Shown piece after piece: positions 1-32,111 of a DNA stretch of 64,000 bases. The notes below the pieces were generated by a model. The model ran no database searches. It was given only the letters and a program-made list of their open reading frames with translations, and was not told the DNA's origin. The stretch lies in the NCBI GenBank assembly GCA_964476445.1, contig CAYZAK010000001.1:83271-147270 (forward strand), read 5' to 3'. Numbering within the stretch: position 1 is the stretch's first letter; the number at the start of each line of letters is the position of its first letter. The translations under genes were made by a program, and so were the position numbers. This DNA is from an uncultured bacterium (GTDB lineage: Bacteria; CG03; SLGR01; JAGXOG01).

Positions 1-1639
1 CTCCCCATCTGTCTCCCCGCCAGTATTCCCAATTACCGGCACCATCGTCTTTTCTTAACTGTATTGCTACCTCACTTACTCTGGATCCGTAATTTGGATC
101 CCTGAAAGAACCCGTAAAAGTAGCAATCATTATATTATACGATTCTCCCCTGACCGGATAAACCATATCACTGTAAGGCGGAGTTATATCGTACCTGAAC
201 TCGGAATTGTAATTTTGGCTATTTAAAATATCGGTTTCCTCAACCTGCTCTTTATTAGGCTCCGATTTTACATCATCATAAGCCCTGACCCATATATTAT
301 TTACCAGTCCATCTCTCAAATTCACCCCGGTATAGGTCCAGGAAGAAGGATGCAATTCAGCTTCCACCCAGTTAATATCTTCCGTGGTCCATCCCTGTTC
401 TGTCCAGTAGTCCTCCTCATCCATCTGTATAACAAGTTCAACTTTGCTTACATCGGAATACTCATCAACTGCTGTTCCGTAAATAGTGAAAGTATGAGTG
501 GAGTCGTTTATCTGTTCGAATTCTCCCTCCATGGGGTACTCTACAAAAGATTCCGGAGTAGTGATATCGTAGATAAATGAAATACCGTTTTTTTCAGCGG
601 TGCTTTCCTGATTGCCGGCCAGGTCGGTCATTTTGGAAGTTACCCAATATTCCGAGCCGGCCGCTCCCCAATCTACATTGGAAGAATTCCAGCTCCAGGA
701 AGTAGTTCCTTCAACCAGGATCCAGTTTTCCTCTGCCAAGTCAAAATCAGTGGTTTCTGTATTATAATAATATTCACCGTTAAATATGGAAATACCCACA
801 AAATCCACTCCCTGGTCGTCGTAAGCAGACCCCTGGATTAAATCCATCTCATTGTAGTTCTGGCCTCCTCCTTCAGGATAGGTTACCGCCGAAACTCCCA
901 CTTGGGTATCGTAAACTATTCTATTCTTCAGAGGAGATTCAATATTTTGAGCTTCATCGTGAGCCCGGGTATATATCCAGTGTTCCTCCCCGTCATTCCA
1001 CTCGGCGGCGGTGGCGTCCCAAACCCATTGTTCGCTGGGAGAATCAAACGCTTCTCCTAACGGAGCCGCGGGATTCCAGATATAAGTTTCGCTTTCCTCC
1101 CAATTACCCTCACCGCTATGATTCCAGAAATAAGTAGTTCCTTCATCAATATATTTTAATGCTATATCAACTTCGGTTATGGCTGAAATTTCTCCCGCAT
1201 CCACCGCGGTACCTTCTATGGTGGGCTTCTCGTTTACATATTCCCCGTCCGGACTGCTTATTCCGGTCTCCGGGGGGGCATTATCCACCCAGAAATCAAT
1301 AGAACTTTCCACTGTCTCGGTAGAACCCAGAGAATCAAAAGACCTGGTCCACAGACGGTATCTTGCCGCCTGGGATTCTTCTTCCAGTCTCCACAGAGCA
1401 GGTACCCCGCCGGTCCACTCTTCGGTTCCATCCCGGGGACGCCAGTTTTCTTCGGCCACCCAGGAGCCTCCCCCTTCCCAGTATAGATCTTCATAGGCTT
1501 CGTCACCCTCCATATACCGGAGTTTTATTTGAGCTCCGGTAACTTCGGCCGGAGAGTATGCCAAAGCGGTTCCCGAAATATCGGTTAAAGGTTGAGTATG
1601 TAAACCAACATAGGGCATAGTTGATGCGGACACCGGTCG
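1..1639 (-). repeat. Trp-rich Ig-like repeat block 4 (4 full units + 1 partial)
   Basis: Units begin RPVSAST, DNAPPET, DTQVGVS, DITTPES, DITPPYS; same consensus as the other Trp-rich blocks. Confidence 0.8.
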
Positions 1640-4600
1640 GGTAGCCACAGTTATTCCGTCCTGCCAACCGTAGATATCCGGATCGTTTATATCGTATACC
1701 TGGACATCATGTTCTCCCGGAGTCATCATCTTAACTTCAAATTCTGATTCTCCTTCGTCTTCAAGTACAAAATTATACGGTTCCGGACTTACCTGTATAT
1801 CGGAAGTGGGAGCGTTAAAAGATACCGTGGAGGTATAATTCTCAAAAATATTACCGAACTGATCAACGGCCTGGACCAGGACCCCGGAAGTTTCATAATC
1901 AACCCTCTGGGGATCGGCTATCCCGGATAGGGATAAGCTGTCTAAAGAGGCGGGTTCAACAGATATCGGATATTGATGACCTTCAATAGTTTCATCATAA
2001 GGATCGCTCTGAAAAGCTCGCAGAGAAAAATTATCGCCGGATTCTCGGAATTCAACGGTAAAAAGGTTCAGGCCCCTCTCGGTGGAAGTGGAGTAAGTAA
2101 ACGTTCCCGGAGCCACGGTCCAATCAGTGTTGTCAGAAGTAAATGTTACGGTATTAGAATAATTGATATCCCGGTTGCCGTATTCATCCCGGGCTATCAC
2201 GTAAAAAGCGTCTTCCTCACCCGCTGCCAGCGTGGCTTGAATACCGGTGACCCTGAACTGACTGGTTTCCGCGGGGTTGACTTTTATACCCGGCTGACGG
2301 CCGTCTATTTCCGGCGAGGGATGATCAATATGCCTGACTTCCACGTACCACGGATCGTTAATATATCCTTCCGTGGTCCAGGAAGACCTGTTAAGGGTTA
2401 CCCCATCCGTAAATGTCCGTTCTCCTTCCACCAGATTCTGACCGGCAGTGGGCAGGGAATAGTAACCTACCGGATTATTGGTGAAAAACTGAACCGGGTC
2501 GGAGCTGCCGGTATCCAGATTGCCGAATTCATCGACGGCTCTTACCGTAATATCATAATCCGCACCGGCATCTATATCCGTGGACATTGAAACTTCGTAA
2601 TTCACCCGCTCGCCGGCAATTACTTCAATCTGGTCTTCTCCCATCCAGGGAGTGTAGTCTGTATCCTTTATCCTCACCACCCGATTTTCGGCGGCGGTAA
2701 TCAGTCGCACGGTGGTGGTATCATAGTCTGCTTCAAAGACGTGCAGTCCGTTATCGGCCAGGGTTCCGGTGGAGAAAGTATAATCAGCGGGAAGGATAAC
2801 TCCCTCATGCTCGTCGTCGGTATCGAAAGTAACTGTTCCTGTATAGTCGGTCTTTCTGTTGTTAAACTCATCCCTGGCCTCCACAACTATGCCCGTGGAA
2901 GTTCCCGCCCGATAGGGGTCGGGCAGGCCGGTAAGAACAAAATTATCTATCCCCGCCGGATCAACAGCTATGGTCATATCGCCATACCATTCGCCGGGGT
3001 TGGCCGTATCCCTGGCCCTGACTGTCCAACCTTCTTCGGCGGTAGTCCTTAAAACCATCTCCTCGGTAAATGTCCGATCGCCGTTATCTTCTCCTTCACC
3101 GGTTGTGAAAGTGTGGGTGGAAGGCAAAGTAGCCTGGGTATCTTCATCGCTGATAAAGGCGAACTCAACAGTCCCTTCATAGTCAAGAACCAGGTTGCCC
3201 CACTCGCCCCACTGACCGTCGTAAATTCTTACCCGGGGGCTTAACTCATCTCCGGCGGTCTCTGTCTGGGAACCTTCATAAAGATCAAGACGAACCTTCT
3301 CTATAGAAGCGTTTTCAACTGTAACAGTATTTGAATCCGAAGCAGGACCTTCCGGATCCACGGCGCTGACAGTCACCTGCCAGTCCCCCGATTTTTTCAG
3401 GTTTAATCCGGCCGGAAACTCAGCCAGTCCTTCATCATTAAGGGTAAAAGTATAATTATCTGGTAATTTTGCTTCCTCCGAATCCTCGGTGGTATAAAAG
3501 GTTATTTCTCCGGTATAACCCAGGGCCACGGTCCCGTCTTCGTTTAGGGCTCTTACCTGGATATCCATATCATCGCCGGCTACGGTGAACTGTCCGTCAA
3601 GATCCGTCCCATCTATTAATTCAAGAGAAAGATGGGTAACCGGTTTTACATACCTGAACCGACTTGAAGAAGGATCTGATTCCTGTAATCCCACATTATC
3701 CACCGCCCGGGCATATACATTGTAGTACCGGTCATCCTCCCACTGAATAGTTGAAGTGTCCAACTCAAAAAATTCTCCGCTTTGAGTGGTCGGATTATAT
3801 GTCTGTACTTCTGTCCAGGTAGAACCGGAGGCATCCCACCAGTAGTAAGGGCTAAAATCCTGTCTTATGGCCATATCCACGGTATCCAGGCCGGACAAAT
3901 CATCCGCTCCCGTGCTTCTTACAACATCCATCGATTCGTACATCGCTCCGTCCACCGGAGTATTAAGATAGGAATAGGGTTCGCTGTCATCGTAGATAAA
4001 AGTGACCGACGGCGTAGAAATCTGAACGTTGCCCGCCTCATCTTTAACGTAAGTTTTTACCTCATACGCCCCGGCGTCAGCCCAGGCTCCCGAAAGGGTG
4101 GTATAGGTCCAGGAAGAGGTGAACATCTGAGTTTCTACCCGAACCTCAGCGGTGGTCCAGGAACTTCCGGTCCAATTATAAGATCCCGAAGAGATTTGAA
4201 GTTTTACAAAATCGACCCCGGAGTATCCGTCATGCATTTCTCCTCTTATTTCTTCCGGTTCACCGCTGGTGTAGTACTCCCCTTCATCCGGATAGTTTAT
4301 AGTACTTGTCGGGGGAACCACATCATAGTGATATACGGACTTTATTTCCCAGGGTTCGATGTTCCCGGCATTGTCCCTGGCCCGGGAGTATATATAGTAA
4401 GTTTCCTCGTTATTTTCATAAAAAATTCCTATATCAGTTTCAGAGATACCGTATTCCCAGCTTCCCGCTCCATAATCCGCGTACATGGATATATCACCGC
4501 CCCAGACTTCTCCGTCCCAGTAATTTCCGTCGGAACTTCTTTGGATTTTTATTCTGACATCGCTTACTCCGCTGTTGGGGGAAGGATAATCCTCCGCTGC

Positions 4601-7600
4601 ACCGGTTAGAGGTTCCACCATATCATTATGACTGGCTTCATTTTTGGGATAATCTACCCAAGCCGTGGGAGTGGATTCGTCGTATCTGAAAGACAGCAGC
4701 GATCCCTGGTTGGCTTCTATATGCTGGGATACATCAGAATCGTACACTTCTTTGTTACCGGCCTCGTCCTTCACTCTCATCCACACCTGGTGCATCCGGC
4801 CGTTCTCCCAGTCTATCTGGGGCAGATTCCAGTTTTCATAATTATCCGCTGTCTGGCCGTCTATCCATTTCATATCTTCAAAATCTGTGCTCCAAGCTGT
4901 TCCGTCCCACCAGGCGCCCGGATCCCGTCGTAGAGCAACCTGAACCAGTTCCACTTCGTTTGTATCATAGGCCGTTCCCTCGATACCTTCAAATGACCAG
5001 TTCACCGCATCACCATCGTATACGGAAGTAACGGTGGCTGTCGGGGCCAGGGTATCGTAAATAAATATAACTTCAGTTAAATCCCCGGCATCTTCTACGT
5101 TTCCGGCCGTATCCTCGGCCCGGGAGGTAAGTTGATACTGGGTATTTTCATCAAAAGGTTCTCCGGGAATACTAAAATTCCAGCTCACTGCCGAATCACC
5201 CCAGTTTCCGGACGCTCCTTCAAGCCACTCTTCCCCGCCCCATCCGCTGCCGGTCCAGTACTGACCGTCCTTCTCTATTCTAACATCAATCTTATCCACT
5301 CCGAATTCGTTAAAAGCCGTACCAGAAATTACCTCGAGTTCGTTTCTTACCTCTCCCTCAGCGGGTACGTCAATATCCGACACCGGAGTATCTGTATCGT
5401 AAGTAACCGCTATCTCGTAAACCGGTTCTTCCACATTAGCTGCGTCATCTACCGACCGGGTACGGATTTTGTGTTCTTTCTGGTTCTGCCAGGCTACGTT
5501 CTCGGCGTTAAAATACCAGTCCACTACCGGAGAAATTCCGAACCCATCGCCGGTGGCTTCTGTGGTATCGTTCCAGTAAGAAGCTGTTGTTGTGGACTGG
5601 ATACTCTGGTTCCAGTAATATGTGGTTCCTTCATCTATATAACTTATCTGTATCTGGACATTAGTTATATTTGAAAATTCTCCCGGGTCTTTTGCCGTTC
5701 CTTCTATTAAATCTATGGAAGAATAATTTTCTCCGTGGCTGTGGGAGGTAATTTCCGATTCGGGCAGACCCCGGTCGGTGTAAAACCGGTAAGGGCCTCT
5801 GACCGTTTCGGTTCCCTTAAGCGAATCATAGGCCCGAAAGTAAAACCTGTAAATCGCATTGCCGTCTACATCCAGGTTATCCCAGGAAGGTAAATCTTCG
5901 CTGTAGAATACCTGTTCCTGACTGTTGTAATCCAGTTCTCTCCATCTTTCGGCTCCCCAGGAAATTCCTCCCCTCCAGTACTGACCTTCTCTGTCTCCTC
6001 CCGATTCACAGTAAAGACGCATCTCCACTTTAGTTACTTCAGCATAATCTTCGTGGTGGGGCACCGCTGTTCCCGAGGTCGAATCCAGGGACCAGGAACG
6101 GTAGCCGTCGTAAGGCATATCCACCGAAGTATCCGGGGGTAAAAGTACTCTGACATTTACCGATTCCCCGGTTTTTGTAGCATCATTATCATCGGTTACC
6201 GTAATCTTCCAACCTTCAGCGGTGTTAGAAGAGTTAAATACCGCTCCGCCGGGCCAGGTCTTTACCCCGTCGTCATCTTCAGTGTAATTGGAAGGTCCGG
6301 GTAAATCAGCAAGAATATCTTCAGAAGCAAAAGTTACAGTTGATACATAATTTTCTACTACATTGTCAAACTCATCCTGGGCTTCCACGGTTATATCCAC
6401 CGGTCGGTTTATACTCACGGCATTATCTTCTGAAAGTCCGCCCAATTTTACCCCGAATTGTTCCAATTCTCCGGCATCAACTGTTATTCCGGTCCGGGTA
6501 CCGGAAGAAAGTCCGCCGGCATAGGCCCACAGCTCCTGGTTCACTCCCGCGGAGCGGTATATCGCGGTATAGTTTTCACTGCCCTCGGTAAGGGTAAGCT
6601 CCACAGGTACAGCAAATCCATCCACCGTGGCCGTATCATCCGTTCCGCCGGTATGGAAGGTAACTTCTCCGGACCAGTCATATACAATATTGTTAAACTC
6701 GTCCCTGACTGATACTCCGGCGGTGTTCGGACTTCCGGCATCCACCTGTCCCGGATAATCTACGGTCAATTTTTCAGCAACAGCAGCCTCTACCATTATT
6801 CCTTCCTGAGATCCAAGGTTATTGTTGCCGTCTTCTACAGTTACTTCAAATCTTTGGGTTAACGGGTCGCTGGCCTCTTTAAGGGTAACCCAGTTGGTGA
6901 ATTCCTGGTAACCGTCAGATATTTCTCCGGGTCCCAGAGATTCAAAATTCTCGTTATCGCTGTCAAATACCACTGTTCCGGTATAATCTGTCTGCAAGTT
7001 ACCGAATTCATCCACCGCTTCTACAGTTATATTCTGAACCACTCCTGCAGTTATTTGAGTGGTCATACTAACTTCAAAAGCTTCCACTGCGGACGGCTCC
7101 ACAGTCACCGTCCGGGTTCCCATCCACACTCCAAAGGCCGTCTCTTCCACTCTCACGTATCGACTTCCCGAAGTAATCAGCCGCACGGTATCCGTCACCG
7201 TTAATCCTTCAAAATTATGGACTCCCGAATCTTCCGGTTCAAAGGTGTAATCATCCGGAAAATTGACTTCTTCATGGACATCATCTGTATCAAAAGATAT
7301 GGTTCCCTGGTAATCGGTTTTGGTGTTCTCAAATTCGTCCCTGGCTTCTACCGTTATCCCCGATTCAGCTCCGGCTTCAAAAGGATCGGGCAGACCGGTT
7401 AAGATAAAATGATCTATCCCAGCCGGATTTACAATAACGTACTGATCATTTTCTATACTTGTACCCACTATCCGGGCATTAACCTGCCAGCCGGTATCCT
7501 GGTTCTTTTCTTTTAACTCCAGCTGATCGGTGAACTCATGTTCTCCGCCTTCTATACCATCGAAATTATAATTTCCGGGCATGTCTGTCTCATAGGGATA

Positions 7601-10600
7601 ATTTTCACTTTCAAAAGTTACCTCCCCGTCAAAATCTTCCACCGGGTTACCCCAGTCACCCCACTGTCCGTCAAATATTTCCACTACCGGTGATTGTATT
7701 TCTCCGGCCACCTGATAGGCGGGTACCCCGGTAAGCTGGATTTTCTGAGCGGGAGCCCATTTTACGTCAATATTCTGTACTTTAAAAAGATCTTCGTCAT
7801 CGCTGTCTTCAGCTCTTACCCAGGAAGAAGCATCCCGGTAGACAAAGTTTAAAGCAGTTGAAGATACATTGCCTTCAAATATCCTGCTTCCTTCATCCGC
7901 GGTTGTAAATGTATAGCTTGTTGGAGCGGTATCGTATTCTTCATGGGCCACGCTGAATTCCACCGTTCCCTGGTACCATTTTGCCGGATTTCCATCTTCA
8001 TTTAAAGCTGTCAGTTTAAACGGTACTGTCGAACCGGCGGTAACTTCCCCGTCCAGTTCAGTACCGTCGGGACGGACAAATTCAAAATCGACCGCAGGCT
8101 TGTAGTAGGTAAAGACTGACTGGGATTCATTGGTAATATTAGTTTCGGTTATTCCCACATTATCTGTGGCACGCAAACGGATACGATAATCCGAATCATC
8201 CTGCCAGGGGACTCCGGAAGAATCAAAACGCCATTTTCCTCCAGAAAACACCATGGTGGAAAATACGGTTCCCGACACCCAGTCCCCGGTCTGAGTATCC
8301 CAGTGACGCAAATCACCAAAATTCTCTCTGATTGCCACCTCAACTTCATCCACTCCGCTGGTAGCATCTAAAGCCGTTCCGGTTATCTCATCCATCATCT
8401 CATACCCCTGGCCATCAACGGGCATCTCCACAAAACTTTCCGGTTCGGAAATATCGTACTGAAAACGTTTTGTAACGGGAGTCTCTCCTACGTTACCCGC
8501 CACATCCAGGGCCCGGGAGGTTATCTCATAAAGTACATCGTCTTCCCAGACAGGCACGTCGGTATAAGTCCAGGAGGAAGTATGGAGCTGAGCATTAATT
8601 GCAGAATACTGTTCTTCTTCGGTCCAGACGCTCCCGGTCCAATAGTTGTTTCCGGAAGAAATTTTTACCTCAACCTTATCAATTCCCGAATACCCGTCAT
8701 ATTGCCCCCCGTGTATTAAAGTGTCAACCTCATCACCGGCGGTATAATATTCTTCTTCGGTTTCTGTTTCGGGCAGTTCTACGGTACTTGTCGGGGGAAC
8801 CACATCGTAATAAAAAGTGGTCTTTGCCGTTAAGTCTTCGATATTTCCGGCGTAATCCTCAGCATAAGTATAAATAAAATATTCTTCTTCGGGATTTTCG
8901 TAAAAAACCGAACGAGCCTCTGGAGAAATATAAAATTCCCAGTCAGGATCAAAAAAGTCAACTGTCATAGTCCGTTCACCACCCCAGTATGTACCTCTCC
9001 ACCACTGGTCATCGCTGGCACGCTGGAGCAGTATTCTCACTCTTGAGACGCCGGAACCCGGCAGCGGATCAAAGGCCTGGCCTGTTACAGTTCCGTATTG
9101 AATGTTATAATATTTATTATTTTCAGGAAAATCTACCAGGGAGTCCGGCGGGGTTTCATCGTAAGTAAATCTGACATAATAATCCTGAATGTTTTCTATA
9201 GTAGAATCAGATTCGGTATCATAAACTGTCCTGTTCTCGGCTTTATCGGTTACCCTCATCCATATATGATGGGGGATGCCGTCTAGCCAATTTATCCCGC
9301 CAACCTTCCAGGTTTCATAAGTATCGGCAGTAGTTGATTCTGCAGGAATCCATATTATTTCATCTCCCTGCCATGATTCAGTTGCTGGGTTCCAGTACTC
9401 ATCTTCCGCTTCAACCACAACCTCTACCGAATAAATACCGGAAGGTTCACCCGAAGCTTCTCCTTCTATATCCACAAGTGTATTGGGATTATAATACTGC
9501 CCGGATTCAATATTCGTTATTTCTGCACTAGGGAAGGCTGTATCGTTATAAAAAGTCACAGCCGGCGCCGTATAGGTATTTCCGGCGTCGTCACTTATCA
9601 TGGCCAGGACTTCAAAAGGAGTACCATCATCATATTCGCCCAGCGCCGATGCCCCCGGCCCGGACTCGAAACTCCAATCCTCGACCGAGAAACTTGCTTC
9701 CACCCAGACTTCGTCCAACACCCAGTCCGTTCCACTCCAGTAGTATATTGGCGAATCCGACTTTCTTATTCTTAACTTTACTCCATCCACACTTATCCCG
9801 GAAAGATCATCCGCAGCGGTACCGGAAATATCGGTCATAGTGTTGTAGTACTCATCCGGTTCGGGAAACTCTATCAATCCTTCAGGGGGAACTGTATCCA
9901 TCATGAAAAGATGCGCGGTAGGAACAGTCTGGGTATTTGCCGCGCTGTCATAAGCCCGGGTTTCTACTCTGTACTCCCGGTTATGTTCAAACGCAGTAGT
10001 TACGGTAACTTCGTACTGCCATGATTCTGTCCCTTCGGCGGAAAGCCAGTGGGAACCGGAATCCCAGCTTTCACCATCCCAGCTTTCCTGAGAACCTTCC
10101 CCGTAATCTCTGAATATCCTGACTTCAGTTCCTTCCACTCCCGCGAAGAACGATCCCGCGGTCGGCGGCGGATCTTCAGCAGTACCGGAAATTATTGACA
10201 TTGTGGAATGATCGTATTTATACGGATAGGTAAACTTGGACTGGGGACGGGTAGTATCATAAATCATATCACTAAAATACCAAGAACCGTCATCAAAATT
10301 TCCGGCCAAATCCTGGCCCTCCAGTCTTAAGGTATACCTGTTACCGTCTATAAGTTCCCCGTCGAACTGATCCCAGGGTATAGTCTGGAATTCCAGATCT
10401 TCGCCCTGGGCTTCATTTAAGATGGCCGTATAGGTAGAACCTTCAACTTCCTCGTTCCAACCAGATTGGGCTTCAAAAACAACTCTTGTCGGTCCCACCT
10501 GCATTTTCTCATCAAGGGTAAGTCCAACATCCATAGAATTTATCGTAGCGGACGTAGAAGGACTCACATCGGAAAATCCGGGCGGGGTTAAATCCCAGGT

Positions 10601-13600
10601 GAATGTTACGGTAGAAAATTCCGTCTGCCAGTTTCCGGCCTTATCCAAGGCTCTTATTATCACCTGGTACTGTCCGTCATCAGGCGGTGAATCTTCATCG
10701 GCAAATGGATTTTCCACTTCTTCAGTCCAGTTGCCCGCGGAATAAAAAGCGGTCCACCAGTTGCCTTCGGAGCTCTGGCCGGTCCAGTCCTCCTGGGTCC
10801 AGTACCCGGTGGTCCCCTCTGATTTCCTGTAAGCCACTTCAACGTCTTCTATACCGGAGACCAGTTCCTGACCGGAACTATCATCCTGGGCGGTCCCTGT
10901 TATTTCCAGAAGTTCGTTATAATAACCCCCGTCTGAGGGTTGATCACCCCCGGTTACAGGAGGCCGGTTGTCATAAACGAATTCCGCGGTTTGAGTGGAA
11001 GTTTCTATATTGCCGGACCGGTCTTTACCTCTTACGGTTATACGATATTCATAACCTGAAGCCCAGGAAATGTCCGAATATGTCCAGGAAGAAGAGTATA
11101 TAATGAGATCCTCATCATCTTCATCGGACAACGTCTCTTTGGAAATAGACCAGCCCCCCCCGTCCCAGTATCTGGTAGTACCGGGAGTCCGGCGGATCAT
11201 TATATCAATATCGTACCATTCCCCGGGTGGCGTGTCCGCTCCCGTACCCATAATTTGAGGCAGAGCGTTGTAATACTCTTCATAGGGTTCGGTAATTCCG
11301 CTGGTGGGCGGTATAGTATCTATAATAAGTTCACTTAAACCCGAACTGCCGGTATTGGGCGACGGCTGAACATGATCCCTGGCCCTGGACCTTATAAAAT
11401 ACTGGCCGTCGTCTTCCCAGACCGCCGTGGGATAGTCAACGTCCCAGTACCATTCTTCGGAAAGAGAATCAAATGTTCCATCAATGGGTTGAACGGGAAT
11501 CCAGTGTTCTCCGGCTCCCCAGTCCCCTCCCTGCTGATAATAATTATCTTCAGTATCCTGGATAGTTATATGCACCTCTCCTATTTTTCCCAGCTCGTAA
11601 CCCCAGGCTTCCCCGGAAGGATCTTCGGCTATTCCCGATATCCGGGAAACACTCTGGTGATGCGCACCAGCGGCGGGCTCCTGGACACTGGCAGTCGGAT
11701 CGGTCTGGTCAATAATAAAGTATCTTCCGGAGCCGGGGGACTCTTCGCCCGCGGGGCCAACACCCTTAGACCTTATGTTATACATAGTTCCGTCAATCCA
11801 CACTGACTGGTCAACTGAAAGATACCAGGAATAAGGAGCTTCACCGGTCGGGGTATCCACCTGGTTCCAAACCTCGGTATCGGACCACTGTCCGGAATCA
11901 TTGTCCCAGTATGTACCGTAAGTGGGGCCCGAAGATATGAGAACATATGTTTCGTTCTCATATGTATACTCATCCGCCTCACCGCTTATCTGGGAGGGCG
12001 ACCTGTAATAGTTGGGGTTCAGCTCAGTTCCCGACGGCGTGTTGATTACGGTTGTCGGAAAAGGTGAACTGTAATACCAGGTATGAGACTTGGTCTCTTC
12101 TACATTTCCGGCTCTGTCCGTTGCCCGGAATTCTGTTTCATACTGCACACCTTCTGCAGTCGCCTGCCAGGAGACGCCGGAAGTGCTTATGCTCCAGCTT
12201 TCACCATCCGGTGTTATACCGTCGCTCCACTCCTGCTGGGGGCTTGAGCTCCACTCATCCTCCTGCCAGTCCCACATCATTCCCGTGAAATCTCCGCCGG
12301 CTGTCTGTCTTATCCTTATCTCAACATAATCCACCTCACCGGGAGGAGTGTCACTGGCGGTACCGTAAATCTCCGGCATCATCTCATACGTATTGTTATC
12401 CTCCGGCCTCTCCATAACTGTCTCGGGAGCTATGGTGTCATATATAAATGTCCTGGTGGAAAAGTCCACTTCCACGTTCGGCCCGGTAATTCCGTCAGAA
12501 GTAGTCCTGTCAATAGCCCGCGCATTAACGTTATAGGTAATGCCGTCCTCAAATGCTCCCTCAAGCGACGTGTACGTCCAGGAAGACCCCCACCACTCGG
12601 CCTCCTGCCAGGCCTGGCCGGGATCCATATGCTGCCAGGATGAACCGTCCCAGAAAATTTCCGTACCGGTCCCGGAGGATATTCTCACCTGAACCCGGTC
12701 CACTCCGGCGCTGTAGTACGGCTCGGCGGGAAGGTCCTCCGCGGTTCCCCATATCTTCTCCAGCGTCTTATCACTCTCGTAATCGCTGTCGGGCTTACTT
12801 ATGGTGCTCTCAGGCGGGGTCTCGTCATATATGAAAGATACTGATTTTATATCTTCCACGTTTCCAGCGTGGTCGCTGTGCCATGCATAAATATGGTAAA
12901 GGTAGCCCTCCTGCCAGTTAGGCATAGTATCATAGACCCACTCCTCTCCCGCGGGCGGGTAAAGAGTGCTTTCTGTGGTAACCCAGTCCGGAGTGTCCCA
13001 GTAATAGGTGGCCGGGTCCCCGGGGCGCTGATGCGTAATCTGAAGCCTTAGCTGAGCCAATCCGGAATCAAACCCTGCCGGGTAATCCATAGCCGTACCT
13101 GATACAAGAAAGGGCTCGTTCCTGTGCCCTCCATCCTCAGGATGGGTAAAAGAAGTCTCAGGAGGTGTGGAATCAAAAAGAAAGGTAATCGTGGAGTAAT
13201 CTATCTCGTAGTTACCCCTGTTATCCCTTGCTCTTGACATTATCCGGTAATCGTTACCGGATATCCAGTTTATGCCTTCTCCGGCATAAGTCCATGAAGA
13301 CTCATGCACTTCGGCCTCGTTTAAGAACTCATTCTCCTGCCACTCACCGGCGTCTTCATTCCAGAAAAACATGTTTGACACCCTCTGGATCTTTACCTTA
13401 ACTTCAACAACTTCTTCATCATCCCAGTGCGTTCCTTCTATGGCCGGCGGGGTCAACTCGTTAATATAATCTCCGTCTTCAGGAAAGGTTACCGTTGATA
13501 CCGGTCTGTCAGTTACAAATACATCTTCTTTAATTCCGTCTTTAGCGGGACTTTCAAAGTCATACACACGCAGGTAGTAAACCCCTCGCGTGGAAAATCT

Positions 13601-16600
13601 TATTCCCTCACCATCAATGGATCTAAACTCCCTGATTCCTTGGTCCTCTTCCTGAAAATCATATTCAAAGGGGATAAAATCAAAGTCAGACGCATCAGAA
13701 TCAAACCTGACACTGCCGGTATAATCAGTAACTATATTTCCATATTCATCTATAGACTCCACTCTAGTCGAGTACCTTTCGCCGCTCGTCTGTATTGTTG
13801 AAGTTTCCACCCTGAAGCCGTCATGTTCTGCGGGAACAACCGTGATGGCAATCGTAGAACCTATCACATCAGGACCTTCCATGCTGTTTATATATATATC
13901 CTGGTCTCCAAGTGTTTTAAGGGTGAAAAGGTCCGGAAACTCCCGGCGCCCTCCATGTTCCTCTGTATACTCAAAAGTTTCCGGGTTAAATACGGCTTGT
14001 TCATCACTTGAAGCAAATTCAACTGTGCCAAGGTATGGAGGATTCTGGCAGCGGTTGCCAAATTCATCCCTAATCCACACCCGGAAAGTTTCCATTGTAG
14101 TACCTGCCGCGATCGGCGGCTCGGGTGAAATTCTGTCAACCGTAAAGTGGTCCGGTTCGGCATTAAAAACCCTTATCCCATCTATTGTTTCGGAAATACC
14201 CACGGGCTCCTGATCAACAATATTTGTAGCAGTTATCTCTCTTCCGGTGCCGGCTTCTGTAAACGCAACAACAGCCGTATATGTACTGATTCCGTTATTG
14301 GCAGCATAGAAATCAACAATGTCATGAGAGACATTTGTCATAAATCCGCCGGTACCGGAAAGCTTTATACCTTCATCATTATCATCAAGTGATTCAAAAT
14401 TGACATCTCTGTTACCGTATGGATCCAATGCCTCTATAACAATATCGTTATATTCCCCCGCGGTTGCGTCGGTTGAAACCGAAAGCCGGAAATATGAAGC
14501 CGGTGCGGGCAAAATTTCAATTCCTTCCTGCAAGCCCTCTCTTTCACGCTCCTCATCTCTTACTCGGATCCAGTGCTCTCCGGCTGTCTTTAAGATAACC
14601 GATGTTTCAAACTCTACGTGAGCGTTATCTTCACCGGTAAAGGAGTAAGGAGATGCCGGAAGCTCTGCCTGGGTATCGGAAGATGTAAACTCCACTTCAC
14701 CCGTGTACTCGTAAGTTCCGCTTGATAGTAAATTTAGAAATTCATCTACGGCTGATACGGTGATACTGGCAGCCTGACCTTCATAACCTGCAATCTGCGG
14801 CCCGGTATCAGTCACAACAAGGAAACTGTCAAGCATATCAGGTTCGACCACTAAGTTTTCATAGAAAGATTCAGAGCCCGGAACTGTCTGATCGCGCGCC
14901 GATACGTGCCACTTTTCAGTTTCATTCCCTTCTCCTATATTGGCCCGCCTGAAAATAAATCCTTCCGTAAATGTTACGACCCCGTAATCTGATTCCTGAA
15001 ACTCGTAATCCTCGGGAAGGCCGTCTCCTCTTGAAATTAAAGGGTCGTTTGAAGCAAACCTTACAACACCCAGATAGTCATGTTTTATGTTTCCGTATCC
15101 TCCTTCCATATCCCCGAAATCATCCCTGGCCTCTATGGTTAACGTTCGGCTCTCACCAGCGCGGGTGTTTGCCCAGTTTTCCTGGAAAGTAAACCTTGAC
15201 AGTGCAGACGGATACACATTCACGTACGCCCTTGTTGAGATAGGTTCCGCATATGTATCATCGTCATAAACCTCGAGATAAATATCACCGTCAGCTGTAG
15301 GATAAGGACCGGTATTTGCTGAAAAGAACCGCGTTGTCTCGGTTGAAACTTCTCCCGAAAAAGTCTTTATCCCGTCATCCTCTGCGGTAAAAGTATAACT
15401 TGAAGGAACAACCCCTGCGACCCCCGCAGGTCCACCCAGGTTAAAATATACGGTCCCCCTGTATCCCATAGCTGTGATTTCCTCAGTTATGTTGTATGCT
15501 TCCACCTGTATTGTAAGTTCCTCACCCGCCTGTACATCGGTGGTATCGGAATCCGAAAGGTCCATGCTTATTTTGAAAGTCTCGGCCGGAGCCACAAACC
15601 TGAAAGTATTTTGATTTTTTCCAGTTTCTTCTTCCGTTTCTATGTTAAGGGCCTTATCCACACCTCTTGAGATAACAGTATAATATTCTCCGCTCTCCCA
15701 TATAACCCCGGGTAAATCATATTCCCACTCCCAGTGAAGCGGGCCTTCGCTTACAACATCGGTTTCAATCCAGTCATTGCCGCCCGAAGACCAGCTATCT
15801 CCGTTCCAGGTATAACCGTCACTATCTCTTACGATCATTAGTTCGACGTAATTCATACCTCTGGTTGGTATGTTCTCATAATTATCCTCAGCGGTCCCTC
15901 TTATCACATCAAGCGTATCATAGTCATTACCATGAATCGGCACCGTTATTTCGGTTTCCGGAGGAATAAAATCCGCAGCAAAAGACACAGTTGAAAAATC
16001 CGTTTCCCAGTTGCCTGCCGCATCCAGGGCCCTGATATTGGCTTCATAATCATCCTCAAGAGTCTCCCACTGGGGACTGTCTGAAAGCACCCAGCTTGTA
16101 GCATCAGGGGAGAGCTGGGTCTCGGCCCATACCGGATCAGTTGTCCATACGGACGGTGATGATGTATTATCCCACCAATACTCTGAGCCGCCGTCAATCT
16201 TTTTCAACCTTACGTAAACCGCTTCGACTTTCCCGGTTTTAACCATTTCACCCGGGATATCTTCCATGGCCCCGGTCTCATCATGTGCCGTTCCTTCAAT
16301 GAAAGCATCTTCTGCTATCAGCCCGTCATTAAGCGGATATACAGCTTCTGATTCGGGAGGTGCCGGATCCCAGATAAACTCATTCCAATTCTCCTCATAA
16401 TTTTCAACGTTTAAATATCTTGGGGAAGCGGGCCCTCTCTCATCCCGGGCCCTTGAAACTGCACGGTAAATACGACCCGGTGTAAAATCTGCCTCATCCG
16501 GCAGGTCGCCCGGATCCACGTGCCACTCAGAAAGAGGCTCCTCAACACTTATCCACTGCGGGGTCTCCGTCTCTGCCCAGCCAACCGAATCCCAGTAGAA

Positions 16601-19600
16601 ACTCTGTCCGCCCTCCGTATACTTAAGAAGGGCTCTTACATCATATACACCTGCTCCGCCATCATAGGAGGCACCCTGCAGCTGGGGAGAGCTGCTCCAG
16701 AAGGAATCTTCATCCGGCACGGTCACACTTGATTCAGGCGGTATTGAATCATAAATAAAAGAGTAGGTATTTCCAGGGATGGATTCAGTATTTGTGGCTG
16801 TGTCAACAGCGTAGCTCCAAACCCTGTACTCCCAGTTGTCCACCCAGGACGGAATATCGGTAAACGTCCAAGAGGAGCTCCATACCTGTGCCCTGTTCCA
16901 GCTATCCTCATCCTCCTCCCAGTCCTCGATTTCCGCATTCCAGTACTGATCAAGCGCTCCACGCTGTATCCTTACATATACATCCCTGACCTGCTGGTTA
17001 TCAGTAACCGTACCGTATATCATGTCTGTAATATCGTGATCGGAATCATTGTAATTGTGAAGCCCGTCGGGTTTTAAGACTTCAGACTCAGGCGGCTCAT
17101 CATCAAAAATAAACCAGATGCTGCTCTGGGCCGGTCCTATGTTGCCAAGGTTATCTATTGCCCGGACAGTGATAGTTGAAGAATGGTCGTTTACCCAGCA
17201 GTCTGTAGTCAGGGAGATATTCCATTCTCCTAACTCATATTCAGTCTGAAGCCAGTTATCCTCAGCATCCCAGCTGTAGTCATCCTGAAGATAATTTGCG
17301 CCTCTCTTTACCTGTATCTCGACCTGTTCAACCTGTGAAAGCGCATCATTTGCCGTACCGGATATATCGTAACTTTCGGTAAAAAAATTAATTATCCTGC
17401 CTGTGGGAGGTGATGTTATAACCGAATCCGGACCTTCCCTGTCACAGATTATTTGAGGTCCTTCCACGGGCGGATCTTCCACGTTTCCCGCCCTGTCTGT
17501 GGCCCGGCTCAGCAGTTGATACTCAATACCGTGTTGAAACTCATTATTTAAATTTGATGCATCAAATGTCCAGGTCACAGTTGAGCCTCCCACAGCGGAG
17601 TCACAGACGCCCGAATGCCATCTGTTATCCGTGGTGGAAGAGAATTCTCCCGCATCCTCATCCCAGTAGTAAATGGTGCCGCCGTCCTCGTATCTAATCT
17701 GCACTTCAATTCCGTTCTGCGCGATTCCCGAATCTTTATCCATTGCCGTACCCGAGATAGTTAATATATCTTTAAAAGTACCCGGAGAAGGATAAAGGAT
17801 TTCCGAAACCGGGTCAACTCTGTCTACCATGATAAGGGTTCCTCCGGTATGAGTTTCATTTATATCCCGCGCTCTGGAACGGATCCTGTAGTAATAGCCG
17901 TGAATCCAGTCTATTTCCCCTTCAGGGCCTGACTCCGAAACATCAAGCGACCAGTTCCAGTCCCCTTCAATACCGGACAAATCGGCATCCAGCCAGTAGA
18001 CAGTTGACTGCCATTCATCATGAGTCCATCTCCAGTATTCGTCTTCCTGGTTCTCGTCATATACATCAAGTTCCTCGGGAACGGCAACTTTCTGGACTGA
18101 TACCTGAACCTGGGCTGGAATATTTCCTGCTCCGAGCCCCGTTATTTCTTCTATCTCCGAAAGATAATCTCCATGCACCGGTGAATCGGGCCAGGTTAAA
18201 GGAAATCCGGTTTCAATTTCGAATGCGGTTCCTCTTCCGGCCGACTCCGAATAAGATTGTGTGCGCGCCCTGGAATATATACGGTATACCGCTTCCTGCT
18301 CATCAAAATTTATGCCGGAGACGTCAACCTCAAAATAATGCCGGTCTCCGGCAGGATAATCCGCACCGGCCCAGTGATAATATGACACTGTTCCGGAGAC
18401 CTCTACCCATTCCTCTTCTGCCCAGTCCCAACGATAGTACACTTTTTCGCTTCCAGAAATTTCACCTCTTACAATACTCACATCAACGCCACTTAGGCTC
18501 TCTTCCGAAAGGTTCAACACCTCTCCCCTAACAAGTGATATATTCCCGTCAATTATTGTCCCGTCTCTTGGAAGAGTTATAAGGGAATAGGGTATGTTTT
18601 CATTGTATGTAAAGGTGATTTCCGGATGTGTTTCTTCAACATTTCCGGCGTCATCGGTAGCTCTTGATACTACCGTATATTCTTTTCCATGCGAGAGTTC
18701 AGGCAGTTCATAATGCCATCTTCTGAATGAATAGGCTGACATCCAGCTTCCCCAGGAGGCTTCAAGCCACTGCATTTGGGAATCCCACTGGTTTCCGCTT
18801 CCCGTGTAATACTCCTCATCCGTTTCATTGTATATATAAATTTCAACAACCCCGTGCCCGTCCATATCCTGCGGCGAATCAAAGGAATATCCTTCAACCA
18901 TAGAAATAACGCCATACTGACCGTCATCGGGCGTGGTAATAAACGAAGAAGGAGATTCTATATCATAGTAGAACATATTTGTTGATCCGTAACTTACATT
19001 ACCGGCCACATCTTCCGCCCGGGGAGTTACGGAATATACGTGTCCGTGCTCAAGGGGAGGAACCGGATACTCCCATATTCCAAGTGGCGGGCTCACTTCC
19101 GCCCATGTATCCTCCGAGGGGTCATTTACCCAGGACGTTCCCGTCCAGAAAGTCGTTCCCCGGGACAGGTCCTGTATTTTAAGTGATACGGAATCAACAC
19201 CCGTCCCGTGTTCGTCATCGGCGGTCTCCCCCTGAAAATGTGTCAGTACATCATTATACCAGCCCCCATCTTCCGGAATAGAAACAATGTTGACATCGGG
19301 CGCTGTAGCATCAAACATAAATCCCCGGGCCGGACCTGGTTCCTCAATGTTTCCTACGATATCACTACCCCTGGTCCTAATCCTGTGTTCTCCCGAAAGC
19401 CAGGGGATACCGCTGTAAGACCAAGTCCCGTCATAAATTTCAAAATTAGCGAAGTCTTCACTTGAGACCCACTGTTCGCTGTGATCTGTCCACGAACCTC
19501 CCGTCCACCATCTGCCGGTATCGGTGTTTTCAATGCAGATTTCAATCCGGTCAATTCCATGAGGATCAGACCAAGTTCCTTCAACAACCATATCCGGATC

Positions 19601-28890: not shown

Positions 28891-29858
28891 TCAAGTTTTC
28901 TCTCTTCTGCTTCCCGTATTCGTTCTATGCTTTCAATACGGCTATCCAGTGTTTCTCTGTAAACATCCCCACGTGAAGGCACATATTTGTAGCTTTCCCT
29001 GTATATCTCTTCTGCTTTTTCCAACTCGCCTTTTCTCCTGTAAACATCTCCCAGAAGAAGACTTATCCCCGGGTTATCCGGTGATATTTCAAGCGCATCA
29101 TAAACAATACTCAAGGCCCTCTCATACTCCTCGGCACTCAGCATTGAATTAGCCAGGTACAGGTGGATAACTGCCGTTCTGTTACCTAATTCTTCATTTT
29201 TCAGGATTCCTTTAATGTATACTTTCTCCGCCTCATCATAGTTTTCTTTCCGGGCATGAAAAAACCCCAGGTAAATGTATCCCTTAAGAAAATCCGGATT
29301 TTCTTCAACAGTTCTCTTCAAGTTTTTTTCCGCATTTTCAGAGTCATCCAATTTCATGTGCGTATGCCCAAGCACGAAATAAGCAATAAATTTATCGGGG
29401 TTTCGGGATATTGCTTTTTCAAGTACGGAGAGCGCGTCATCATTACGATTAGCTCTGGCGTATGCATCACCAAGCATCACTTTGGAATAATAATTGCCGG
29501 GAATTGCCTCATTTAGTTGTTCGGCAAATTCAAGAAGCTGCTCAAATTCGGAATCCATCGACGCAGCCCTGCTTAACGTCTCCCTTGCTTCATCAGGATA
29601 GTTTAAAATGTAGTAAGAGTACGAAAGAAGATAAACAGGAACAGCGTTTTCCGGCTCATCATCCATCCATTCTTCCGCTAAATCTTTCAGCATATCGAAA
29701 TCTTCTTTTTCATAAGCAGCAGATACTTTTTGCAGGAGATTTTCGTCAGCCAAACCGGAAGTGCTTAAAGCAAGGCATATAAAAACAATAAGGATAAAAT
29801 ATTTAATTATAATTGCGTAGTTTCGCACAGAAATTGTTTTTTTATAACTGTTCCTCAT
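28881..29858 (-). CDS. Exported tetratricopeptide-repeat protein
   Basis: Signal peptide (..LALSTSGLA-DE). TPR units such as AYFVLGHTHMKLDDSENAEKNLKRTVEENPDF and ISLLLGDVYRRKGELEKAEEIY. Confidence 0.88.
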   Translation of the reverse strand: MRNSYKKTISVRNYAIIIKYFILIVFICLALSTSGLADENLLQKVSAAYEKEDFDMLKDLAEEWMDDEPENAVPVYLLSYSYYILNYPDEARETLSRAASMDSEFEQLLEFAEQLNEAIPGNYYSKVMLGDAYARANRNDDALSVLEKAISRNPDKFIAYFVLGHTHMKLDDSENAEKNLKRTVEENPDFLKGYIYLGFFHARKENYDEAEKVYIKGILKNEELGNRTAVIHLYLANSMLSAEEYERALSIVYDALEISPDNPGISLLLGDVYRRKGELEKAEEIYRESYKYVPSRGDVYRETLDSRIESIERIREAEERKLDWR

Positions 29859-31404: not shown

Positions 31405-31422
31405 CTTTATTTTTTATTTTTC

Positions 31423-31493
31423 TTTCTCAACATGCAGATAAATACTTACGCCTGAAGGTTAAATTATAGTTGATTTATCTGAACCTTGAGAAA
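31423..31493. repeat. Two-armed imperfect inverted repeat enclosing a minus-strand TATAAT
   Basis: TTTCTCAA(31423-30)/TTGAGAAA(31486-93) and CAGATAAAT(31435-43)/ATTTATCTG(31473-81); attata at 31463-68 reads TATAAT on the minus strand. Confidence 0.7.
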
Positions 31494-31535
31494 TAGATTT
31501 GAACAGACGAGATATTTGGGGTGACTGGGTAAATA

Positions 31536-32042: not shown

Positions 32043-32050
32043 ATTTTTTG

Positions 32051-32076
32051 TCTATACATCTATACACATCTATACA
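32051..32076. repeat. Three copies of TCTATACA in the 5' leader of the 168-aa gene
   Basis: Copies at 32051, 32059 and 32069. Confidence 0.7.
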
Positions 32077-32077
32077 T

Positions 32078-32111
32078 AAAAAAATCCGGTTTCACTGATA
32101 AGGTAAACCGG
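32078..32111 (-). terminator. Intrinsic terminator (riboswitch expression platform)
   Basis: Minus-strand RNA CCGGUUU-AC-CUUAUCA-GU-G-AAACCGG followed by AUUUUUUU. Confidence 0.85.

What the first reader, a model, noticed from the sequence alone, without database searches (positions are those of the whole stretch)
1..10600. Titin-like higher-order super-repeat: 13 domains (7 Trp-rich + 6 type-B), ~4.5 kb period
Seen: equivalent units recur at ~4,480-4,500 bp spacing. A 23-nt identity gtacttgtcgggggaaccacatc (DVVPPTST) lies at 8784 and 4302. GQWGDWGN/GQWGEWGN occur at ~7700/~3205, AGID(H/N)F(I/V)LTGLPDP at ~7430/~2960, and YIDEGTTY(Y/F)WN at ~5620/~1140. A unit with a long C-terminal insertion ends at ~9160, ~4687 and ~198. 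Inference: the gene grew by duplicating a ~1,495-aa module that preserves domain order, as in molecular-ruler proteins, which suggests a periodic function or defined length.
Basis: partly seen in the sequence, partly recalled or inferred. Interest (0 to 1): 0.75.

Follow-up and report, generated by a model that had tools for sequence, protein, structure and literature searches.

The report
Block-duplicated giant Elusimicrobiota surface protein
This is part of a giant secreted protein (over 9,100 residues in the window, probably over 17,000 in full) from a soda-lake Elusimicrobiota bacterium, whose chain of Ig-like domains was lengthened long ago by copying a 13-domain block. The repeat is real, but this is an ordinary way for repeat proteins to grow, and nothing points to a titin-like ruler.

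Summary
Window 2-27313 (minus strand) is one open gene of 9,104 codons that runs off the left edge. It encodes a signal peptide, a 320-aa head, 19 TIG domains, then runs of Trp-rich Ig-like domains (W) alternating with three blocks of exactly six filamin/Big_1-like domains (B).

Window 1-10600 holds two full 13-domain modules and the start of a third: M1 (10582-6137), M2 (6136-1637) and M3 (1636-2). In-register self-alignment gives 36% identity and 726 bits at a 1,495-aa offset. Offsets of 12 or 14 domains give 24-26% and 112-142 bits. Domain-score autocorrelation peaks only at lag 13.

Position-specific similarity is clear for W4-W7 and B1-B4 (M1/M2) and for W1, W2, W5, W6 (M2/M3). It is not seen for W3, B5 or B6.

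The duplication is ancient. Synonymous sites are saturated, and collinear orthologues (44-54% identity) in other Elusimicrobiota MAGs carry both modules without concerted evolution.

In orthologues M3 is followed by about 48 W domains and no third B block. One orthologue lacks eight domains, and another has 7 rather than 14 leading W domains.

The best reading is an acidic megadalton cell-surface fibre or adhesin stalk extended by block duplication.

The parts
2..27313 (-). Giant gene, 9,104 codons from ATG 27313, with the 3' end beyond the window's left edge. The product in the window is 1.01 MDa, pI 4.05, D+E 18.2%, K+R 5.4%.
   Evidence: It is the only open frame longer than 1,038 codons. 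Translation is and composition. Its ATG overlaps the upstream gene's stop as ATGA. An independent ENA assembly is 100% identical over the 8,433 nt compared.
27245..27313 (-). Sec-type signal peptide MKMYKTLLNIIFVLILSAGSVFA|DG
   Evidence: Read directly from the translation: basic n-region, hydrophobic core, V-F-A cleavage motif. This is by inspection; no predictor was run.
26285..27241 (-). N-terminal head of about 320 aa of unknown fold. It is a candidate ligand-binding or anchoring domain.
   Evidence: No Pfam or NCBIfam match. Only one homologue exists among 5.8 billion proteins, a partial Elusimicrobia protein at 43% identity.
20690..26287 (-). 19 TIG/IPT-like Ig domains, with their own 4-domain higher-order period
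   Evidence: Own HMM finds 19 copies. Pfam TIG and Qn_am_d_aIII match. Autocorrelation peaks at lags 4 and 8.
15590..20689 (-). Run of 14 Trp-rich Ig-like domains (W type)
   Evidence: Own HMM. Pfam Big_13 and Big_3_3 are weak hits.
13505..15589 (-). First block of six B-type domains (M0). It is a weakly position-equivalent older copy of the later B blocks.
   Evidence: Own HMM. Permutation test of M0 against M1: 17 of 720 orderings reach the observed value with window sequences only, and 3 of 720 with seven gene copies. M0 against M2 with seven gene copies: 1 of 720.
10583..13504 (-). Run of eight W domains between M0 and M1
   Evidence: Own HMM. The run is orthologous in L002, L004, L005, L008 and L009.
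6137..10582 (-). Module M1: atypical Trp-poor domain (10247-10582), six W domains (8096-10246) and six B domains (6137-8095)
   Evidence: The atypical domain is conserved in orthologues at 42% identity and has no Pfam match.
1637..6136 (-). Module M2: seven W domains (3641-6136) and six B domains (1637-3640)
   Evidence: AlphaFold models of M2.W6 (pLDDT 96.8) and M2.B3 (pLDDT 96.2) are both Ig-like beta-sandwiches.
2..1636 (-). Module M3, cut by the window edge: W1-W4 complete and half of W5
   Evidence: M3.W1, W2 and W5 are closest to M2.W1, W2 and W5 (36, 42 and 40% identity). W4 shares the C-terminal insertion. The region is orthologous to L002 4555-5110 and L004 4551-5212.

Best explanation
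Window 1-10600 is an internal stretch of one giant gene of a soda-lake Elusimicrobiota bacterium. The gene encodes a Sec-exported, very acidic chain of Ig-like domains. This is most likely a cell-surface fibre, meaning a fibrillar-adhesin-type stalk or envelope filament. There are 77.5 domains in the window, and more than 140 are inferred from orthologues.

The 4.5-kb period is the trace of old in-frame tandem block duplications. A 13-domain segment (seven W-type plus six filamin/Big_1-like B-type domains) is present as two full copies, M1 and M2. These are flanked by a W-only third copy (M3) and preceded by an older six-B block (M0).

Shown: the architecture, the lag-13 register, the position-specific homology, the age of the duplication, and its conservation and variation in orthologues.

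Inferred: that the product is an extracellular fibre. Also inferred is why block duplication suits it: the stalk lengthens while closely similar domains stay 13 positions apart rather than adjacent. The copies now evolve independently, and B3 is under the strongest constraint.
For: Position equivalence over seven gene copies, as class-mean identity:
- M1/M2: W4 35, W5 40, W6 46, W7 39, B1 34, B2 37, B3 51, B4 33. Medians are 24-31.
- M2/M3: W1 34, W2 37, W6 42. W5 scores 37, second to the L005 M0.W5 class at 39.

Age:
- Nucleotide identity is 48.5%.
- At identical residues the same codon is used 213 times against 188 expected from codon usage.
- Both modules are present and collinear in L002, L004, L005+L007 and L006/P0001 at 44-54% identity.
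- Within-genome M1~M2 identity equals cross-genome identity, so there is no concerted evolution.
- The B4 indel marks M2 in both species.

Domain nature:
- The W profile hits the extender domains of the giant adhesins MpIBP/MpAFP RII (4p99, E=1.9e-8), an RTX adhesin (5irb) and SiiE (2yn3) through the shared D.AGN...vDt motif.
- Both AlphaFold models are confident Ig-like sandwiches. Their structural neighbours include MpIBP BIg, SiiE, SbsC, Rib, intimin and LigA/B.
- The B-type profile finds 17,986 representative proteins, many with 10-37 tandem copies. Two of the three top relatives scanned accumulate Filamin scores, and one of them also Big_1.

Export: a signal peptide is present and the composition is that of a secreted haloalkaliphile protein.

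Organism and reality:
- All homologues come from Elusimicrobia/Elusimicrobiota.
- The sequence is held by soda-lake runs of 2019 and 2022.
- A second assembly is identical.

Block duplication is the usual route of domain-repeat expansion (PMC1553488).
Against: The 3' end of the gene is outside the window. No anchor, sorting signal or ligand-binding domain has been seen, and the N-terminal head is uncharacterised.

No expression, localisation or binding data exist.

W3, B5 and B6 show no position-specific similarity, and M1.W1 is a different kind of domain. The clean '13-domain unit' therefore rests on the offset plus 8-10 informative positions.

Tree-based clustering is weak for most positions. 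Strict monophyly of M1+M2 in neighbour-joining bootstraps was 24-46% for W5, W6 and B3 and near zero elsewhere, on alignments of about 114 columns. It was stronger only in the two-genome tree, at W6 94% and W7 81%.

The continuation beyond the window is inferred from orthologues. Two of these MAGs carry other phylum labels ('Caldiserica', 'Deltaproteobacteria'), which are probably binning errors but were not checked.
Confidence: 0.78

Rival explanations
1. Titin-like ruler or periodic scaffold. On this view the 7W+6B unit is a functional period of roughly 50-60 nm. It would set a defined length or present B blocks at regular spacing to a periodic partner.
For: The 7W+6B architecture and the count of exactly six B domains per block are kept in orthologues that have diverged to 44-54% identity. 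A paralogous gene (L010) also shows B6-W7-B. B3 is unusually conserved between modules, at 51-56%.
Against: There are only two full modules. Autocorrelation has no peak at lag 26. The third copy lacks B domains in orthologues and is followed by about 48 W domains with no periodicity. Domain number varies among orthologues: L008 has eight fewer, and L005 has 7 rather than 14 leading W domains. No partner is known.
Confidence: 0.1
2. Recent or ongoing repeat expansion of the 'periscope protein' kind. Near-identical DNA repeats would recombine to vary stalk length between strains.
For: There is one 23-nt perfect identity between the modules. Domain number differs between orthologues.
Against: The modules are 48.5% identical in DNA with saturated synonymous sites. 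The repeat finder finds no long near-identical direct repeats. Within-genome identity equals cross-genome identity. Both modules predate the divergence of the sampled lineages.
Confidence: 0.03
3. Position-specific resemblance arose by convergence or shared constraint at equivalent places in the fibre, not by block duplication.
For: Similarity is uneven along the module: strong at B3, W5 and W6 and absent at W3, B5 and B6.
Against: Eight consecutive positions are each other's best match in the same order, at a constant offset. Shared insertions are present in W4 of M1, M2 and M3, and a B4 indel pattern is shared between species. Convergence at eight positions in register is far less economical than one duplication.
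Confidence: 0.04
4. Assembly artefact: a chimeric or mis-joined contig built from repeated sequence.
For: Giant repeat genes often break assemblies. The ENA contig of the same locus stops inside M1, at residue 6,864.
Against: The repeats are too diverged to mis-assemble. An independent assembly is identical where it overlaps. A Logan contig of another run spans window 1-3000 and runs 1,743 nt further left. Several orthologues are collinear over the whole region.
Confidence: 0.01

Closest known systems
Titin A-band super-repeats (7- and 11-domain Ig/Fn3 patterns; from my own knowledge) and the nebulin 7-module super-repeat (PMC1553488)
   Same: A fixed order of two domain types recurs at a constant multi-domain offset. 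Position-equivalent domains are more alike than neighbours. The origin is block duplication.
   Different: There are only 2 full copies plus a partial one, against 6-11 or more in titin. No periodic partner is known. Copy number and domain number are not fixed among orthologues. The host is bacterial and the domain families are unrelated.
Giant Gram-negative adhesins with BIg extender domains: MpIBP/MpAFP (PDB 4p99, 4kdv), RTX adhesin (5irb), SiiE (2yn3), LapA type
   Same: The product is a megadalton, acidic, extracellular chain of about 100-residue Ig-like domains. The W-type profile matches their extender domains by sequence (E=1.9e-8 to 3e-4) and fold.
   Different: Those proteins use near-identical single-domain repeats and type I secretion, with C-terminal RTX repeats and no Sec signal. 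This protein has a Sec-type signal peptide and no GGxGxD repeats in the window or in the orthologue tail. Its domains are 25-35% identical to their neighbours, and three or more domain types are arranged in blocks.
Fibrillar adhesins as defined by Monzon et al. (10.1101/2020.12.07.414375; PMC9210967)
   Same: It is a long multidomain secreted protein with tandem stalk-type Ig-like domains.
   Different: No adhesive domain or surface anchor has been identified in the part available.
Giant genes of Omnitrophota, Elusimicrobia and related phyla (West-Roberts et al. 2023, bioRxiv 10.1101/2023.11.21.568195; PMC12057145)
   Same: It belongs to the same group of phyla, has no close annotated relatives, and is presumed extracellular and involved in cell-cell interaction.
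   Different: Archaeovorin- and dockerin-type giants carry enzymatic, HEAT, TPR, dockerin or transmembrane segments. This one is made almost entirely of Ig-like domains, and no type II secretion locus lies upstream.
Invasin/intimin Big_1 arrays and filamin-repeat rods
   Same: The B-type domain is an Ig-like sandwich. Two of the three top relatives scanned accumulate Filamin scores, one of them also Big_1, and intimin, InvE and LigA/B are fold neighbours.
   Different: No inverse-autotransporter beta-barrel is detected at the N terminus. Single B domains fall below every Pfam and NCBIfam threshold.

Membership tests
Titin-type super-repeat | A fixed multi-domain pattern repeated in tandem many times | tested here: not met
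   There are two full 7W+6B modules and one W-only partial copy. Autocorrelation has no peak at lag 26. Orthologues show no further B block in the next 26-48 domains.
Titin-type super-repeat | Domains at equivalent positions of different repeats are more alike than neighbouring domains | tested here: met
   This is met for W4-W7 and B1-B4 (M1/M2) and for W1, W2, W5 and W6 (M2/M3). It is not met for W3, B5 or B6.
Titin-type super-repeat | The period matches a periodic binding partner or lattice (ruler function) | not testable with these tools
   No partner is known. Variable domain number among orthologues argues against a strict ruler.
Fibrillar adhesin | A stalk of tandemly repeated domains | tested here: met
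   The window holds 77.5 Ig-like domains of three types. The models are Ig-like sandwiches.
Fibrillar adhesin | At least one adhesive (ligand-binding) domain | tested here: inconclusive
   The N-terminal 320-aa head has no family match and only one homologue. The C-terminal part is outside the window.
Fibrillar adhesin | A cell-surface anchor | not testable with these tools
   The 3' end of the gene is not in the window and could not be fetched.
RTX / type I-secreted giant adhesin (LapA, MpIBP, SiiE) | BIg-type extender domains | tested here: met
   The W profile scores E=1.9e-8 against 4p99, 6.7e-5 against 5irb and 2.9e-4 against 2yn3.
RTX / type I-secreted giant adhesin (LapA, MpIBP, SiiE) | C-terminal RTX nonapeptide repeats and a T1SS signal, with no N-terminal Sec signal | tested here: not met
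   A Sec-type signal peptide is present. No GG.G.D motif occurs in the 9,131 residues or in the 7,778-residue orthologue tail L013. The true C terminus has not been seen.
Inverse autotransporter (intimin/invasin) | An N-terminal outer-membrane beta-barrel followed by Big_1 domains | tested here: not met
   There is no IAT_beta or other barrel match in residues 28-370. TIG domains follow the head, not Big_1.
Periscope proteins | Highly identical DNA repeats that give strain-level length variation | tested here: not met
   The modules are 48.5% identical in DNA. No long near-identical repeats are present.

The most novel reading that the evidence does not exclude
The alternation of W runs with blocks of exactly six B domains is functional and not merely historical. 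It is conserved across orthologues and is also seen in a paralogue. On this reading the six-B blocks are regularly spaced interaction or oligomerisation stations on a fibre of more than 17,000 residues. That would make it a bacterial counterpart of a periodic scaffold such as titin or nebulin, perhaps organising an envelope layer or a cell-cell contact in ultrasmall Elusimicrobiota.
Probability: 0.1. Interest if true: 0.7.

Novelty: new member of a known kind. Interest (0 to 1): 0.35.

Why it matters
It documents, with orthologue support, how a bacterial megadalton Ig-repeat protein was built. Growth came from old in-frame duplications of a heterotypic 13-domain block, with later loss of whole domains, rather than from the near-identical single-domain arrays typical of well-studied giant adhesins.

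It also defines two building blocks for annotating the many unannotated giant genes of Elusimicrobiota and related phyla. One is a Trp-rich BIg-like extender. The other is a widespread filamin/Big_1-like domain that single-domain Pfam and NCBIfam scans do not detect; the profile finds about 18,000 representative proteins.

It does not open a new mechanism.

Tried and rejected
- A global residue-offset identity scan over the whole protein showed no peak near 1,495, because the signal is diluted by the other 6,000 residues. BLASTP of the whole protein against itself returned only the diagonal. Overlapping pieces were needed.
- Exact search for the window's first 49 nt found nothing in genome contigs or metagenome contigs.
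- An exact-protein look-up of the upstream gene with its TTG start was not on record.
- The ENA contig carrying this locus stops earlier than the window.
- A Logan contig in run X1 extends 1,743 nt beyond position 1, but its letters cannot be read with these tools. The window's proteins sit on a 161,201-nt NCBI contig, which could not be reached either. The continuation in this genome is therefore untested.
- The homologue search with 2,045 residues did not return the gene's own product.
- Strict-monophyly neighbour-joining bootstraps on 114-column domain alignments gave low support for most positions. They were partly spoiled by my first labelling of L008, corrected. I rely instead on class-mean identities, reciprocal best paralogue classes and permutation tests.
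- I looked for periodicity in the 26-27-domain W tail of L002 and L004 and found none, apart from a weak 3-domain echo at lag 10.
- I considered concerted evolution for the highly conserved B3. I rejected it because within-genome and cross-genome identity are equal.
- PDB profile and fold searches for the B domain gave only generic Ig-like neighbours, with E no better than 1e-3.
Full report
**What is in the window**

The only very long open frame is on the minus strand, window 2-27394 (9,131 codons), and it runs off the left edge. Translation starts at ATG 27313, which overlaps the stop of the upstream gene as ATGA. The N terminus reads MKMYKTLLNIIFVLILSAGSVFA|DG, a Sec-type signal peptide by inspection. 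The 9,104 residues in the window weigh 1.01 MDa. They have pI 4.05, 18.2% D+E, 5.4% K+R and only 17 Cys. The plus-strand ORFs listed inside the region are antisense shadows of this frame.

**Domain anatomy**

Iterative HMMs built from the protein itself give the following order. Residue numbers count from codon 1 of the open frame, so residue i begins at nt 27394-3(i-1).

| Part | Residues | Domains |
|---|---|---|
| Head | 52-370 | 1 region of about 320 aa |
| TIG/IPT-like (T) | 370-2236 | 19 |
| Trp-rich (W) | 2236-3936 | 14 |
| B-type, block M0 | 3936-4631 | 6 |
| W | 4631-5605 | 8 |
| Atypical Trp-poor | 5605-5717 | 1 |
| W | 5717-6434 | 6 |
| B | 6434-7087 | 6 |
| W | 7087-7919 | 7 |
| B | 7919-8587 | 6 |
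| W, cut by the window edge | 8587-9131 | 4.5 |

- module M1, window 10582-6137;
- module M2, window 6136-1637;
- the start of module M3, window 1636-2.

Pfam sees only weak Big_13, Big_3_3, Big_3_2 and Big_7 signals in W, TIG and Qn_am_d_aIII in T, and nothing in B.

**Checking the observation**

All quoted motifs are at the stated places. The 23-nt string occurs exactly twice, at 4302 and 8784, with none expected by chance.

Self-comparison in overlapping pieces gives one collinear alignment at an offset of 1,495 aa. It has 36.5% identity over 1,546 columns and 726 bits. Alignments shifted by one domain within the module, or at 12- and 14-domain offsets, reach only 109-142 bits at 24-26%.

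I applied the autocorrelation measure of Bjorklund et al. (PMC1553488) to local alignment scores of same-type domain pairs. It has a single peak at lag 13 (126-148 against about 75) and no peak at lag 26.

**Do position-equivalent domains cluster?**

Within the window, M1/M2 identities on the diagonal are W4 35, W5 47, W6 48, W7 39, B1 33, B2 35, B3 56 and B4 39%. The background is 20-32%. M2/M3 gives W1 36, W2 42 and W5 40.

Averaging over seven gene copies from related genomes sharpens this.
- Reciprocal best paralogue classes are M1.W5-W7 with M2.W5-W7, M1.B1-B3 with M2.B1-B3, and M2.W2 and W6 with M3.W2 and W6.
- M1.W4 and M2.W4 (35) tie with or rank just behind the single L005 M0.W4 domain. 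M2.B4 picks M1.B4 (33). M2.W1 picks M3.W1 (34). M3.W5 ranks M2.W5 (37) second.
- W3, B5 and B6 show nothing specific, and M1.W1 is a different kind of domain.

The in-register order beats nearly all permutations:

| Comparison | Data | Orderings reaching the observed value |
|---|---|---|
| B, M1/M2 | window only | 1 of 720 |
| W, M1/M2 | window only | 9 of 5,040 |
| W, M2/M3 | seven gene copies | 2 of 5,040 |
| B, M0/M1 | window only | 17 of 720 |
| B, M0/M1 | seven gene copies | 3 of 720 |
| B, M0/M2 | seven gene copies | 1 of 720 |

Shared rare features agree with this. The long C-terminal insertion marks W4 in M1, M2 and M3.

Tree support is weaker. In a two-genome neighbour-joining tree the W6 and W7 position clades get 94% and 81%, and the M2/M3 W1 clade gets 90%. 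In the larger set, strict monophyly of M1+M2 is only 24-46% at W5, W6 and B3 and near zero elsewhere.

**Age and mode of the duplication**

M1 and M2 are 37% identical in protein and 48.5% in DNA. At identical residues the same codon is used 213 times against 188 expected from codon usage, so synonymous sites are essentially saturated.

A scan of one genome per species found collinear orthologues:
- L002, with further fragments L003 and L009 from the same MAG (isolate 01_128);
- L004 (HGW-Elusimicrobia-2);
- L006, which is P0001 (Elusimicrobia GH52);
- L005, L007 and L013 (a MAG labelled Caldiserica);
- L008 (a MAG labelled Deltaproteobacteria).

They are 44-54% identical to this gene from residue about 4,000 to the window's edge, and they carry the same odd-W6-B6-W7-B6 order.

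An eight-residue insertion in B4 is shared by M2 here and M2 of P0001 but is absent from both M1 copies. Within-genome M1~M2 identity equals cross-genome identity at every informative position. The duplication therefore predates these lineages, and the copies have evolved independently since.

B3's high conservation reflects constraint, not gene conversion.

The pattern fits one tandem duplication of a 13-domain segment in the register W4...B6-W1-W2-W3, plus at least one older event relating M3.W4-W6 and the M0 block. I cannot separate these scenarios with the data in hand.

The sequence left of position 1 could not be read. The exact-match scans were empty. The ENA contig ends earlier. A Logan contig extends 1,743 nt further but is not readable here.

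In L002 and L004, which align with M3.W1-W5 at 47-49% identity:
- the next domain is clearly W6-like ('GIDFVDVRISTNSSYFWTGSSW...SWTYTTLPAW');
- the one after it is not DxSEP-like;
- no B block follows, and instead there are 26-27 W domains to the end of each locus.

L013 overlaps L004 at 56% identity and extends the picture. There are about 48 W domains in all, then one B, then about 17 copies of a third repeat of about 117 aa, then more than 1,400 further residues with the frame still open. The family's gene thus exceeds about 17,000 codons.

Domain number is not fixed. L008 lacks M2.W7, all six M2 B domains and M3.W1. L005 has 7 rather than 14 W domains before the first B block. The W tail has no periodicity.

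**What the domains are**

- The W profile matches the extender domains of the ice-binding adhesin MpIBP/MpAFP (4p99, E=1.9e-8), an RTX adhesin (5irb) and SiiE (2yn3) through a shared '...W.v.v....D.AGN.....vDt' half-domain.
- AlphaFold models of M2.W6 (pLDDT 96.8) and M2.B3 (pLDDT 96.2) are Ig-like sandwiches. The fold neighbours are generic. For W they are CopC, the PPAD Ig domain, MpIBP BIg and SiiE. For B they are Rib, SbsC, intimin, LigA/B and InvE.
- The B profile finds 17,986 representative proteins at E<=1e-3, many with 10-37 copies. Of the three top relatives scanned, two accumulate Filamin scores and one of those also Big_1. B is therefore a common environmental Ig-like domain that single-domain scans miss.
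- No RTX nonapeptides occur in the window or in the orthologue tail.

**Most likely function**

The product combines Sec export, extreme acidity, almost pure Ig-like content, relatedness of W to adhesin extender domains, and a unique N-terminal head. It is best read as an extracellular fibre, meaning a fibrillar-adhesin-type stalk or envelope filament. At about 4 nm per domain (my estimate from typical Ig-like domains, not measured) it would be roughly 0.3 micrometres for the part in the window and 0.6 micrometres or more in full.

Block duplication lengthens such a stalk while keeping the most similar domains 13 positions apart. Bjorklund et al. note that selection against aggregation may favour this (PMC1553488). 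These functional steps are inference; nothing here tests them.

**Comparison with what is known, and verdict**

Growth of domain repeats by multi-domain blocks is the rule rather than the exception (PMC1553488). Giant genes are known to be common in Elusimicrobia and neighbouring phyla (bioRxiv 10.1101/2023.11.21.568195; PMC12057145).

What is particular here is the size and heterotypic nature of the block (7+6 domains of two families) and its clean conservation across genomes.

It works like a titin or nebulin super-repeat only in its evolutionary origin. The defining features of a ruler are absent or contradicted: many tandem copies, fixed length and a periodic partner.

I rate it a real, well-observed but ordinary feature, and a new member of a known kind.

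Noticed in passing
window 20690-26287 (-): The 19-domain TIG/IPT tract has its own higher-order repeat of four domains. Domain-score autocorrelation peaks at lag 4 (108 against about 75) and lag 8 (90). The best self-alignment is at offset 402 aa with 30.5% identity.
   Followed up: partly
window 27310-33280 (-): A chain of overlapping, probably co-translated genes lies directly upstream of the giant gene. In order they are HEAT-repeat proteins, a UbiA-family prenyltransferase (29855-30721), a TPR protein (28881-29858) and a 523-aa polytopic membrane protein with no family match (27310-28881, ATGA overlap with the giant's start). A lipid-linked glycosylation set acting on the giant protein is conceivable but untested.
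   Followed up: partly
L008 (JAIVZN010000036.1), orthologue aa ~2800-3050: This orthologue goes from M2.W6 to an M3.W2-like domain and then M3.W3. It lacks eight whole domains (M2.W7, B1-B6, M3.W1), which is an in-frame loss of more than half a module.
   Followed up: yes
L013 (QMOP01000002.1), aa ~4160-6160 of the open frame: The downstream part of the orthologous gene holds about 17 copies of a third repeat of about 117 aa ('LQVLLPGE..PG..G.P..Q.AG..F...V...D.YWN'), plus more than 1,400 further residues. It has no Pfam match above threshold and no RTX motifs.
   Followed up: partly
window 4302-4324 and 8784-8806: The 23-nt perfect identity (eight identical codons for DVVPPTST) sits in paralogues whose synonymous sites are otherwise saturated. 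This is roughly a 0.4^8 event per conserved 8-residue block. It could be chance found after the fact or a small local constraint; it is unexplained.
   Followed up: partly
window 1-27400 vs 27400-64000: The giant gene is richer in G+C (46-50%) than the rest of the window (33-45%). This may reflect its D/E/G/T-rich composition or a different history.
   Followed up: no
window 51235-53583 (-) and 42695-45295 (-): Two other secreted-looking proteins are present. One is a 782-aa FG-GAP protein with a sub-threshold T9SS type A sorting tail (TIGR04183, 21.7 against a cutoff of 23) and FlgD_ig. The other is an 866-aa protein with an SLH-like Glucodextran_C module. The sorting tail hints at a possible export or anchoring route in this organism.
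   Followed up: no
window 2612-2953 and 7091-7420 (-), domain B3 of M2 and M1: B3 is far more conserved than any other position: 56% between modules here, and 51% as the class mean, equal to its orthologue identity. It carries the motif AGID.F.LTGLPDP..AG...GI.VEARDEF.N.KTDY.GT..FDTDD, making it a candidate functional site.
   Followed up: partly
L010 (JAQICQ010000087.1): A second, paralogous gene in the MAG that holds P0001 has a head, one TIG domain, ten W, six B, seven W and then B. The six-B and seven-W counts therefore recur outside the orthologous gene.
   Followed up: no
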